Shown: positions 42,001 through 44,616 of the stretch, piece by piece
How positions within the stretch are numbered: position 1 is the stretch's first letter
How the letters are laid out: every line of letters starts with the position of its first letter
Origin: Escherichia phage phiv205-1
Reading direction: 5' to 3' (one strand)
Sequence record: MN340231.1
Length of the DNA: 44,616 nt
Position numbers: made by a program

Positions 42001-44616
42001 ACACTCGTCATTACTGCGATACCGCAACAGCTACTCCGGCGAAAGCAAAGAAAATGGCTGCTCTGATAGAAAACTGGACTCCACCTGATGGTTGGTGCAA
42101 TGGGAATGATCGAGATTGGCACGAAAAAATGAAGGGCTATATCTGCGATTTTTTACGTAAATGCAACGGCTTCAGGGGGATGTGATATGACCAAAATTAA
42201 CTATCAGGCACTGCGTGAGGCGGCAGAACGTGCAATTCCGGCAATGGAACGCCTGTTAATGTTGCCAGTTGATGATGATTTGTTAAGTGAACAGGAACTT
42301 AAGGATTACGGTGTGGATATTGATGCGCTCAACGCCTTCAAATTTCTGACCGGACCAGAAACCGTGCTGGCGCTGCTGGATGAACGGGAAAGAAACCAGC
42401 AATACATCAAACGCCGCGACCAGGAGAACGAGGAAATTGCGCTAACGGTAGGGAAGCTGCGCGTTGAGCTGGAAGCTGCAGAGAAGCGCATTGCAGAACT
42501 GGAAGCCGAACCTGTAAGCCAAACTTACAAGTTGAACGAGCTGTCGGGCAACTATCCGGTAACTCCGGATGGTTGGATAAGCTGTAGTGAGCGAATGCCC
42601 GCTCAAGATGATTGGATTTTAATTTATTCAAAGCACGGCGAGTATATGGCAGGACAGGTACAAGGGGAATACGTGGAGTTGAGCGACGGCACTTTATCGT
42701 GGTTAGGGAACGCCTTGTACTGGATGCCTCTACCGGAACCGCCGCAGGAGGTTAATTGATGGTCTCCTTCGCGAAATATACGATTATTGACTGGATAGCA
42801 TTCATTCAGGTTTTGCTCATCTGGTTTTATATGGCTTACAGGAGTGGACAGTGGATTGTCAGTGTAGCCTGTAGCAATGGATGGCGTTGGTGGAACCGAA
42901 AGAATAAAAAAGCGCTGGCCTTGGCTTCGTTTTACGAAGCATTCAATCTTAACAGTCTTCAGCCTGGTTCTGTCGTTGTAGTCACCACTCAAAGCGGCAT
43001 GACGATACAAATTCACAAGCCAAAGGAGGAAGGTCGTGGCTAACCTGCAACTTGCCGTTAAAGGTGAATACTTCGATGCCATGATTCGCGGAGAGAAAAC
43101 GGAAGAGTATCGCCTGTGTAATGACTACTGGAATAAGCGAATTATGTTCCGCGAGTATGACCGCCTGATTATCACAAAGGGATATCCGAAGCGCGACGAT
43201 TCCAGCCGCAGAATTGACGTCCCGTATGACGGATATGAAATCAAGACAATCACACATCCGCACTTCGGCGATAAACCGGTAAAGGTGTTCGCTATAAAGG
43301 TGAATATCGACAATGAATGATAATCCTCGCACTCGCGGGGATTTCTTTTATCTGAACTCGCTACGGCGGGTTTTGTTTTATGGAGATGATAAATGCACTT
43401 CCGAGTCACAGGTGAATGGAATGGAGAGCCATTCAACAGAGTTATCGAAGCAGAGAACATCAACGACTGCTATGACCACTGGATGCTGTGGGCGCAGATA
43501 GCACATGCAGACGTAACTAATATTCGAATTGAAGAACTGAAAGAACACCAAGCCGCCTGATGGCGGTTTTTTATTGCCTGATTTGCAGGTTCGATTCCCT
43601 ATTCGGAGATAGCACTCATGCAACACGAACTACAACCTGATTCACTGGTTGATTTGAAATTCATCATGGCCGATACTGGCTTCGGTAAAACCTTCATCTA
43701 TGACCGGATTAAGTCCGGCGACCTGCCAAAAGCCAAAGTTATCCACGGGCGAGCAAGATGGTTATATCGTGACCATTGTGAATTCAAAAATAAGCTCTTA
43801 AGCCGCGCCAATGGGTAAAATAGCGGGTAAAATATTTCTCACATCTAAAAAACACCATTCCAATCAATCCCCTGCCGCCTAAAGTAGATGTCTGCAGGGG
43901 ACACCATTCTTGTGTTTATCCCTAAAACCACGTAAAAACCGTAAATTATTAAATTCGCACTAGCAATGCCGAATAAGGCACACCAGAAACTCGTGGTCTT
44001 ATTCATTATGAAGTGGTTTTTACCTGTTCTCTTAACCAAGTAATAAATGCCTCAATTTTTGGCCACTGCCTGCCCGGTAATGTAGTGATGTAATAATGCT
44101 GATGGCATTTCACCGTCATATCGCCAAACGGCGCGACGAGCTCACCACTGGCAAGCCTTTTTTGTACCAGACGTTTCCTTCCCATCGCCACCCCAATATG
44201 ATTCATCGCGGCGATAACGGCTAAATCAGAGCGATCAAAGCCAATTCCAGAAGATGTCGGCAAATTAACCGCATAATGTTGCGCCCAACTATGCCATTCA
44301 TCCGTACCGGAGTCGTTGCTCCATGCCTGTCTGTCATGGAGCAACGTACAGTGACGCAGGTTAATTACCGTGTTGGTTAAATCATGTCTATGAGCGTACT
44401 CCGGGCTGCAAACTGGCAGGATTTCTTCATCCATCAGAAAGTGATGAGCCAATTGCGCTGACGGCGCATCATCAAAGTAGATCGCCAAATCGATTCCGGC
44501 ACGTTGCAAATTGACATTGTCATTACCAGTGAGCACGGTGAGCGAAATAGACGGATATCGGCGTGTAAAGTCACCTAATGCGGGCACCAACCAGCATTGG
44601 GCGATAGAGGGCCGGG

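What the first reader, a model, noticed from the sequence alone, without database searches (positions are those of the whole stretch)
43845..44006. ORF coupled to the dsdC stop that reads across the right prophage junction
On the minus strand an ATG overlapping the dsdC stop (TAATG) opens a 53-codon frame whose first ~33 codons are chromosomal and whose last ~18 are encoded by the core repeat and phage DNA. If expressed, its C-terminus was created by integration; more likely it is a chance ORF.
Basis: seen in the sequence. Interest (0 to 1): 0.2.

Follow-up and report, generated by a model that had tools for sequence, protein, structure and literature searches.

The report
Chance ORF across prophage attR junction
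The 53-codon frame that starts on the dsdC stop codon and runs across the right end of the K1 prophage is really there, but it is almost certainly a chance reading frame over an intergenic spacer and the phage's recombination site, not a gene.

Summary
On the minus strand the dsdC stop TAA (44008-44006) overlaps an ATG (44006-44004). That ATG opens 53 codons ending at TAG 43847-43845. Codons 1-33 are chromosomal. Codons 34-39 cover the 16/17-nt argW core repeat (43892-43908). Codons 39-53 are phage DNA.

- The frame is not conserved. In the sequences read it is 53, 48, 41, 46, 40, 19 or 18 codons long, and it is absent in CFT073.
- K-12-type alleles, the majority, carry a 1-nt frameshift at codon 14.
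- All 7 single-base differences among close alleles are non-synonymous or nonsense.
- No Shine-Dalgarno sequence precedes the ATG, and 7 of 53 codons are rare.
- There is no credible Pfam match and no NCBIfam match. PGAP annotates nothing here in the twelve E. coli genome records inspected.
- 15-23% of all ATGs in the window open frames this long.

What lies under the ORF is the dsdC-argW spacer plus the attR site of a CUS-3/KplE1-type prophage. That site holds the core and an adjacent inverted repeat, with Int arm-type repeats just beyond the stop codon. The homologous stretch in K-12 (43795-43929) is the published in vitro attR substrate.

Translation was not tested; no usable ribosome-profiling data were reachable. 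Interest is low.

The parts
43845..44006 (-). The 53-codon ORF of the finding. ATG is at 44006-44004 and TAG at 43847-43845. I judge it a non-coding chance frame.
   Evidence: Searches show its presence. Searches show it is not conserved. Searches give no credible family match.
44006..44616 (-). 3' part of dsdC (LysR-type regulator). The gene runs off the window end. Its stop TAA is at 44008-44006.
   Evidence: One search gives the 194-aa C-terminal ORF. One search shows PGAP annotates dsdC (WP_001331803.1) at the identical position in APEC IMT5155, which is 100% identical over the 741 bases compared.
43908..44005 (.). Chromosomal dsdC-argW intergenic spacer, covering codons 1-33 of the ORF. 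It is present next to argW in empty-site strains.
   Evidence: FDAARGOS_1372 and BE2-5 have argW directly followed by this spacer and then dsdC.
43892..43908 (+). attR copy of the att core, CTGCAGGGGACACCAT plus T. This is the duplicated 3' end of argW.
   Evidence: two exact copies against 0 expected. PMC2951348 gives the KplE1 16-nt core and PMC8787464 the Kapi1 17-bp att. HK620 annotates its attP core at the equivalent position.
1069..1085 (+). attL copy of the same core, forming the 3' end of the intact argW gene.
1009..1083 (+). argW, tRNA-Arg(CCU), the integration target.
   Evidence: ARAGORN.
43845..43891 (.). Phage-derived P-arm DNA between the Int arm-type repeats and the core. It encodes codons 39-53 plus the stop codon.
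   Evidence: this stretch is contiguous in the free phages HK620, Sf6, Kapi1, HF4s and N7; it is absent from empty sites.
43869..43900 (.). Inverted repeat CCCCTGC (43869-43875) / GCAGGGG (43894-43900), formed by phage DNA and the core. The stem is kept in all attR variants read, and the loop is where the 'protein' varies most (residues 42-44).
   Evidence: predict the hairpin on both strands. Searches give the variants.
43813..43833 (+). Two GGGTAAAAT repeats, putative IntS arm-type sites of attR. They lie just beyond the ORF's stop codon.
   Evidence: 6 matches in the window against 0.55 expected, 5 of them at attL or attR. HK620 marks the equivalent stretch as an 'attP' repeat region.
43795..43929 (.). 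Stretch homologous to the 135-bp attR substrate used for in vitro KplE1 excision. It overlaps the 3' 85 nt of the ORF.
   Evidence: The primer sequences in PMC3509656 map to 43795-43814 and 43912-43929.
43618..43818 (+). torI, the excisionase / recombination directionality factor and the last prophage gene.
   Evidence: 66 aa; the PGAP-annotated TorI (WP_001163428.1) is the same protein in IMT5155 and in a K-12-like strain.
1209..2402 (+). IntS-type tyrosine integrase next to attL.
   Evidence: Phage_integrase at 5e-39, plus the Arm-DNA-bind_3 and Phage_int_M domains.

Best explanation
The 53-codon frame is a fortuitous open reading frame and makes no functional protein.

Its first 33 codons lie over the AT-rich spacer between the convergent genes dsdC and argW. 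Its last 20 codons lie over attR, the right recombination site of a CUS-3-like P22-family prophage that uses the KplE1/HK620/Sf6-type IntS/TorI integration module.

The DNA there serves recombination. It holds the 16/17-nt core where IntS exchanges strands and a phage-borne inverted repeat next to the core, with arm-type Int sites 12 nt past the ORF's stop. These roles come from published work on the homologous KplE1 and HK620 sites, not from tests here. Transcript 3' ends of dsdC and torI may also fall in this stretch (inferred).

Integration does change where the frame stops, so the 'hybrid C-terminus' is real as sequence. Nothing indicates that selection sees the product.
For: (a) Frame not conserved. 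It is 53 aa in IMT5155 and DLL557. It is 48 aa in AR_0058 (TGG to TAG) and 41 aa in UTI89 (1-nt deletion in the core copy). It is 46 aa at the empty site and 40 aa in MNCRE44. It is 18 aa in K-12-type alleles and 19 aa in Escherichia sp. E1V33. It is absent in CFT073, where the dsdC 3' end itself is replaced.

(b) Population counts. 2386 complete E. coli genomes carry this dsdC end. About 1531 of them fall in the 90-95% identity band, and every listed row in that band was 4-6 nt shorter than the query. The five short-allele sequences actually read all carry the frameshift. By subtraction, about 116 of 5426 genomes combine the long allele with a KplE1-type attR.

(c) Substitution pattern. All 7 single-base differences among close alleles change or end the protein: F7S, I14T, R33I, F42L, R43K, W49*, V52I. 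None is synonymous. Residue 43 is R, K, A, E or T among gene-caller products.

(d) Phylogenetic reach. Outside Escherichia the dsdC C-terminus and downstream DNA are unrelated across 80 species loci.

(e) Start and codons. No Shine-Dalgarno sequence lies 5-10 nt upstream; the only AGG is about 20 nt away. Seven of 53 codons are rare: ATA x2, AGA, AGG, CGG, GGG x2.

(f) Annotation. PGAP annotates nothing here in the twelve E. coli genome records inspected. NCBIfam gives no match. The only Pfam hit, DUF5656, is at E = 0.09 and below its cut-off. The exact 53-aa product is in a 90% cluster of 9 unnamed or 'hypothetical' members.

(g) Chance expectation. 15-23% of ATGs in the window open 53 or more codons.

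(h) The underlying DNA has a documented function. The core, arm-type repeats and the in vitro attR substrate all map here (PMC2951348, PMC3509656, PMC8787464).
Against: - The TAATG stop-start overlap is the classic geometry of translational coupling and needs no strong Shine-Dalgarno sequence.
- Residues 10-28 are hydrophobic enough for one membrane helix (mean Kyte-Doolittle 1.93 over 19 residues), like many genuine small E. coli proteins. The coding strand is 34% T, however, which favours such residues by composition alone.
- Within B2-type strains the first 33 codons stay open in every sequence I read.
- No translation data could be examined, so expression is not excluded.
Confidence: 0.93

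Rival explanations
1. It is a genuine, lineage-restricted (B2-type allele) small membrane protein, translated by termination-reinitiation from the dsdC message. Its C-terminal tail is swapped according to which element sits in argW.
For: The TAATG overlap is present. There is a hydrophobic 19-24-residue segment. The N-terminal 33 codons are open in all long-allele sequences read. Gene callers occasionally call it.
Against: - A frameshift at codon 14 is present in the majority allele and in the outgroup Escherichia sp. E1V33. The long frame therefore looks like a recent 1-nt insertion.
- 7 of 7 substitutions are non-synonymous or nonsense.
- Nonsense and frameshift variants occur in close relatives.
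- It has rare codons and no Shine-Dalgarno sequence, and no credible family match.
- dsdC is a regulator gene, expected from general knowledge to be weakly expressed, so coupled translation would be low.
Confidence: 0.04
2. It is a type I toxin-like hydrophobic peptide, controlled by an antisense RNA made from the convergent torI/argW side.
For: It is small with a hydrophobic core followed by a charged tail. Convergent transcription across the region is plausible from the gene orientation.
Against: Rfam gives nothing near threshold and neither Pfam nor NCBIfam gives a credible toxin match. Promoter-like sites are not enriched here: 1 found against 2.3 expected. The frame is disrupted in most strains. 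The tail is not conserved.
Confidence: 0.01
3. The selected element under the ORF's 3' half acts at the RNA level, in addition to recombination. In this view the inverted repeat CCCCTGC-N18-GCAGGGG works as a transcription stop or insulator between the convergent torI and dsdC transcripts. This does not exclude the best explanation.
For: The hairpin is predicted on both strands. The stem is invariant while the loop varies among attR alleles. On the + strand it is followed by TTCTTGTGTTT.
Against: The terminator scan does not report it: the loop is 18 nt and no clean T-run follows. The fold z-scores of -1.26 and -1.45 are unremarkable. Half of the stem is the att core itself, which is conserved for recombination and tRNA reasons anyway.
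Confidence: 0.15

Closest known systems
attR of the KplE1 (CPS-53) prophage of E. coli K-12, and attP of HK620, Sf6 and Kapi1 (IntS/TorI recombination module at argW)
   Same: The 16-nt core CTGCAGGGGACACCAT (17 nt as in Kapi1) is identical. The TorI protein is identical. The order torI, arm-type repeats, core, dsdC is the same. The primers for the 135-bp in vitro attR substrate map onto 43795-43929 (PMC2951348, PMC3509656, PMC8787464).
   Different: The host allele of the dsdC-argW spacer is the B2 type, 4 nt longer than in K-12. That difference alone is why the frame reaches the junction here, whereas it stops after 18 codons in K-12. The prophage body is a full CUS-3-like K1 phage rather than the 10-kb KplE1 remnant.
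CUS-3 prophage of E. coli K1 RS218 (GenBank CP000711.1)
   Same: Over the left 24 kb of the prophage, 67% aligns at 98.3% identity, including the endosialidase tailspike. The last 299 nt of the record are 100% identical to the window.
   Different: The record ends at window 43598 and labels TTGCAGGTTCGATTCC as the 'attR core'. That leaves torI and the KplE1-type core outside the record. The window sequence and the free-phage genomes place the true junction at 43892-43908.
hkaB of phage HK620, an annotated 46-aa ORF that crosses the attP core
   Same: It is a short unnamed ORF lying across the same att core. It shows that mechanical ORFs over this site do get annotated.
   Different: It is on the opposite strand, starts at the end of hkaC/torI, and lies wholly in phage DNA in attP. 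In this window the + strand frame there is only 23 aa (43811-43882).
Genes whose 3' end is rebuilt by an integrating element, for example icd with e14 or phage 21 (from general knowledge, not tested here)
   Same: A reading frame crosses an att junction, so its end is supplied by the integrating element.
   Different: In those cases the host gene is a real, conserved gene and the element carries a near-synonymous replacement of its 3' end. Here the host part is not a conserved gene and the phage-supplied tail is unrelated to the empty-site tail.

Membership tests
Bona fide small protein gene (translationally coupled sORF) | A start codon with a ribosome-binding site or a stop-start overlap | tested here: inconclusive
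   The TAATG overlap is present. No Shine-Dalgarno-like sequence lies 5-10 nt upstream; the only AGG is about 20 nt away.
Bona fide small protein gene (translationally coupled sORF) | Reading frame kept intact across strains and related species | tested here: not met
   Lengths are 53, 48, 41, 46, 40, 19 and 18 aa, and the frame is absent in CFT073. The frameshifted allele is the majority (about 1531 of 2386). Nothing comparable exists outside Escherichia.
Bona fide small protein gene (translationally coupled sORF) | Purifying selection, seen as an excess of synonymous changes | tested here: not met
   7 of 7 single-base differences are non-synonymous or nonsense. The sample is small (6 DNA alleles), so this is indicative and not a formal dN/dS.
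Bona fide small protein gene (translationally coupled sORF) | Membership of a described protein family or curated annotation | tested here: not met
   NCBIfam gives 0 hits. The only Pfam hit is at E = 0.09, below its cut-off. PGAP is silent in the twelve E. coli genome records inspected. Only sporadic 'hypothetical' calls exist.
Bona fide small protein gene (translationally coupled sORF) | Direct evidence of translation | not testable with these tools
   The one ribosome-profiling supplement I could open (Stringer et al., bioRxiv 10.1101/2021.07.02.450978) is truncated in the library and covers K-12 only. Its lack of a hit is uninformative. Weaver et al. has no supplement held.
KplE1/HK620-type attR (IntS/TorI module at argW) | Duplicated 16-nt core CTGCAGGGGACACCAT at both prophage ends, one copy forming the argW 3' end | tested here: met
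   The core sequence is as published in PMC2951348.
KplE1/HK620-type attR (IntS/TorI module at argW) | Tyrosine integrase with an arm-binding domain at attL, and the TorI excisionase gene at attR | tested here: met
   (integrase domains). TorI WP_001163428.1 is the same protein as in the K-12-like strain.
KplE1/HK620-type attR (IntS/TorI module at argW) | Arm-type repeats flanking the core | tested here: met
   GGGTAAAAW occurs three times at attL and twice at attR, 6 matches in the window against 0.55 expected. HK620 marks the equivalents as attP repeat regions. Actual IntS binding was not tested.
KplE1/HK620-type attR (IntS/TorI module at argW) | Recombination activity (excision to attP and attB) | not testable with these tools
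   This is shown in vitro only for the homologous K-12 site (PMC3509656, PMC2951348). Empty-site strains with the matching attB do exist.
Type I toxin (small hydrophobic peptide plus antisense RNA) | Conserved hydrophobic peptide with a cognate antisense RNA | tested here: not met
   A hydrophobic segment is present. The peptide is not conserved. No Rfam match is near threshold and promoter-like sites are not enriched.

The most novel reading that the evidence does not exclude
In B2-phylogroup E. coli, a 1-nt insertion has created a young small membrane protein that is translated by coupling to dsdC. Its cytoplasmic tail is rewritten each time a different element integrates at argW. Prophage CUS-3 would then 'edit' a host micro-protein linked to D-serine regulation in K1 and uropathogenic strains.
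Probability: 0.03. Interest if true: 0.45.

Novelty: not a real feature. Interest (0 to 1): 0.06.

Why it matters
It matters little. If the ORF were translated, it would be a neat case of a prophage rewriting the end of a host micro-protein next to a virulence-linked D-serine locus. The evidence instead points to an ordinary chance frame over a well-studied attachment site.

The practical value is negative. This ORF should not be annotated. Automated calls of it (a few 'hypothetical protein' entries exist) are most likely false positives.

A useful by-product is that the right end of the CUS-3 GenBank record appears to be set about 309 bp too far in, which excludes the excisionase gene torI.

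Tried and rejected
- Rfam scan of 43300-44300 at E up to 1 gave only two sub-threshold chance hits, neither in the ORF.
- The promoter/terminator scan found nothing in the ORF except one weak minus-strand promoter-like site, 43972-43945, within chance expectation.
- RNA folds of both strands gave unremarkable z-scores of -1.26 and -1.45.
- NCBIfam gave no match, and the single Pfam hit (DUF5656, E = 0.09) is below its cut-off.
- Ribosome-profiling literature led nowhere. The Stringer et al. supplement held in the library is cut and starts at genome coordinate 105, so the absence of dsdC, torI or the peptide means nothing. The Weaver et al. supplement is not held. The paper search found no paper linking dsdC with small proteins.
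- Two papers are not in the library: the KplE1 intasome paper (PMID 20494389), which maps the attR protein-binding sites, and Moritz & Welch 2006. The IHF and IntS site positions inside the ORF's 3' half therefore remain inferred.
- I considered the GenBank CUS-3 'attR core' (43583-43598) as the real junction and rejected it. The DNA after 43598 is not the continuation of argW, and free phages carry 43513-43907 as one piece.
- I did not run the large protein homology searches. The exact-sequence cluster look-up and the DNA surveys already answered the question, so the cost was not justified.

Full report
**Where the window comes from**

The stretch compared, 43560-44300, is 100% identical to the chromosome of E. 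coli APEC IMT5155. The window holds the following:
- argW, tRNA-Arg(CCU), at 1009-1083.
- A tyrosine integrase with an arm-binding domain at 1209-2402.
- About 42 kb of a P22-like prophage. The left 24 kb is closest to the K1 phage CUS-3, with 67% aligned at 98.3% identity, including the endosialidase tailspike.
- The excisionase gene torI at 43618-43818.
- The 3' part of dsdC on the minus strand from 44006 to the window end.

**The observation**

On the minus strand dsdC ends ...KTTS with TAA at 44008-44006. The A at 44006 is also the first base of an ATG (44006-44004), giving TAATG. That ATG opens 53 codons, MNKTTSFWCALFGIASANLIIYGFYVVLGINTRMVSPADIYFRRQGIDWNGVF, and the frame ends at TAG 43847-43845.

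The core CTGCAGGGGACACCAT occurs exactly twice in the window, at 1069-1084 and 43892-43907, against 0 expected. The next T is shared too, giving the 17-bp att reported for phage Kapi1 (PMC8787464). Codons 1-33 (44006-43908) are therefore chromosomal spacer. Codons 34-39 cover the core. Codons 39-53 and the stop are phage DNA (43891-43845).

There is also an in-frame upstream TTG at 44039, which makes the mechanical ORF 64 aa.

**Is the right junction really there?**

Yes. Three lines agree:
- Empty-site strains (FDAARGOS_1372, BE2-5) have argW followed directly by the spacer and dsdC.
- The free phages HK620, Sf6, Kapi1, HF4s and N7 carry window 43513-43907 as one contiguous piece.
- HK620 annotates its attP core at the equivalent of 43892-43907.

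The GenBank CUS-3 record stops at window 43598 and labels a different 16-mer there, TTGCAGGTTCGATTCC, as the 'attR core'. That 16-mer is also repeated in argW at 1054-1069. The DNA following 43598 is not the continuation of argW, so it cannot be the junction. It is a phage-borne tRNA-like segment 20 nt upstream of torI.

**Is the ORF more than chance?**

No. Of the 1688 ATGs in the window, 23% open 53 or more codons, and 14.6% do so after removing frames of 150 or more codons. With the local composition, a given start stays open for 52 more codons with probability about 0.03. A TG following a TAA stop has a probability of about 0.09. By my estimate that gives roughly 0.003 per gene, so on the order of ten such stop-overlapping frames per E. 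coli genome.

**Conservation**

The frame is not kept. The sequences read give these lengths:

| Strain or allele | Length | Cause or context |
|---|---|---|
| IMT5155, DLL557 | 53 aa | KplE1-type attR |
| AR_0058 | 48 aa | TGG to TAG |
| UTI89 | 41 aa | 1-nt deletion in the core copy |
| Empty site (FDAARGOS_1372) | 46 aa | frame runs antisense into argW |
| MNCRE44 | 40 aa | beside another island |
| K-12-type alleles | 18 aa | 1-nt deletion at codon 14, plus a 3-nt deletion |
| Escherichia sp. E1V33 (outgroup) | 19 aa | shares the 1-nt-shorter state |
| CFT073-type strains | none | last residues of DsdC replaced, no TAATG |

Because the outgroup shares the shorter state, the long frame looks like a recent insertion. 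This rests on a single outgroup.

Among 5426 complete genomes, 2386 carry this dsdC end. About 1531 of them are in the 90-95% identity band, and every listed row in that band was 4-6 nt shorter than the query. Only about 116 genomes combine the long allele with a KplE1-type attR; this is 753 full-length matches minus 637 in the short-allele band. These counts come from identity bands, not from reading every sequence, so they are approximate.

In 80 loci from other species the dsdC C-terminus and downstream DNA are unrelated.

**Substitution pattern and coding signals**

All seven single-base differences among close alleles are non-synonymous or nonsense: F7S, I14T, R33I, F42L, R43K, W49*, V52I. 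Products called by automated pipelines show R, K, A, E or T at residue 43.

These variable positions sit in the loop of an inverted repeat, CCCCTGC (43869-43875) / GCAGGGG (43894-43900). Its stem is invariant. The DNA or RNA element is what is kept, not the peptide.

Seven of 53 codons are rare: ATA x2, AGA, AGG, CGG, GGG x2. No Shine-Dalgarno sequence lies 5-10 nt before the ATG. NCBIfam gives no match, and the only Pfam hit, DUF5656, is at E = 0.09 and below its cut-off. Rfam gives nothing near threshold. PGAP annotates nothing here in the twelve E. coli genome records inspected. The exact 53-aa product sits in a 90% cluster of nine members, unnamed or 'hypothetical'.

**What is actually under the ORF**

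The 5' 99 nt is the spacer between the convergent dsdC and argW genes. The 3' 63 nt belongs to attR.

The primers used by Panis et al. to amplify the 135-bp attR substrate for in vitro KplE1 excision map to 43795-43814 and 43912-43929 (PMC3509656). The last 85 nt of the ORF therefore lie inside the homologue of an experimentally active recombination site.

Two GGGTAAAAT repeats at 43813-43833 match three similar repeats at attL (1200-1244). There are 6 matches in the window against 0.55 expected. HK620 annotates their equivalents as attP repeat regions. They are presumably IntS arm-type sites, which is inferred and not tested.

**What speaks for a gene**

- The TAATG geometry is typical of translational coupling.
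- Residues 10-28 are hydrophobic enough for one membrane helix, with mean Kyte-Doolittle 1.93.
- The first 33 codons are open in every long-allele sequence I read.

The coding strand is 34% T, which by itself favours F, I, L, V and Y. I could not examine any translation data. The one ribosome-profiling supplement available is truncated and covers K-12 only.

**Verdict**

The region is the known KplE1/HK620-type attR joined to the dsdC-argW spacer. About 0.04 remains for a young, B2-restricted micro-protein. Interest is low.

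Noticed in passing
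window 43583-43598 and 1054-1069: There is a second exact 16-nt direct repeat, TTGCAGGTTCGATTCC. One copy is the T-arm part of argW, abutting the att core. The other is phage-borne, 20 nt upstream of the torI ATG. In argW the two 16-mers are adjacent; in the phage they are separated by about 293 bp holding torI. This could mean that an older, longer tRNA-homologous attP was split by torI. That is speculation.
   Followed up: partly
window 43598-43907, compared with GenBank CP000711.1 (L089 1484-1499): The CUS-3 GenBank record ends at window 43598 and calls the 16-mer there the 'attR core'. This leaves the excisionase gene torI and the KplE1-type core outside the phage record. The window sequence, the empty sites and the free-phage genomes put the true right end at 43892-43908.
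   Followed up: yes
L090 (E. coli UTI89, NC_007946.1 around 2637860): The attR copy of the core in UTI89 lacks one C, reading CCCTGCAG where IMT5155 has CCCCTGCAG. This is either a sequencing error in an old assembly or a mutation that could impair excision of that prophage.
   Followed up: no
L007 (E. coli CFT073) 1475-2422; window 44006-44020: In CFT073-type strains the last residues of DsdC differ (...REQVSQYECYTL against ...REQVKTTS). The downstream DNA is an island carrying the invertase gene ipuB. The variable-region boundary therefore lies about 14 nt inside dsdC. Matches that begin at this boundary also appear among the rows listed, so other genomes share the break.
   Followed up: partly
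window 29153-29308 (minus strand): The prophage carries two tRNA genes, tRNA-Thr(TGT) and tRNA-Asn(GTT), side by side.
   Followed up: no
L088 (HK620) 999-1139, equivalent to window about 43811-43950 on the + strand: HK620 annotates a 46-aa ORF, hkaB, that starts at the end of hkaC/torI and crosses the attP core. In the prophage state this frame is cut, and the window has only a 23-aa frame at 43811-43882. It is another mechanical ORF over the same att site.
   Followed up: no
L011 (Escherichia albertii NBRC 107761) just after the dsdC stop, about 2469-2560: In E. albertii the dsdC frame is 12 codons longer. It is followed at once by GGGTAAAAA / GGGTAAATT / TTTTTACCC motifs like the IntS arm-type repeats. 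This suggests an argW-type element inserted directly at, or within, the dsdC 3' end in that species.
   Followed up: no
window 43892-44100, compared with the E. coli genome collection: Only 2709 of 5426 complete E. coli genomes have any match to the dsdC 3' end plus spacer. About half of the species therefore lacks this version of the locus altogether. That fits the known hypervariability of the argW-dsdCXA region, cited in PMC8787464.
   Followed up: no
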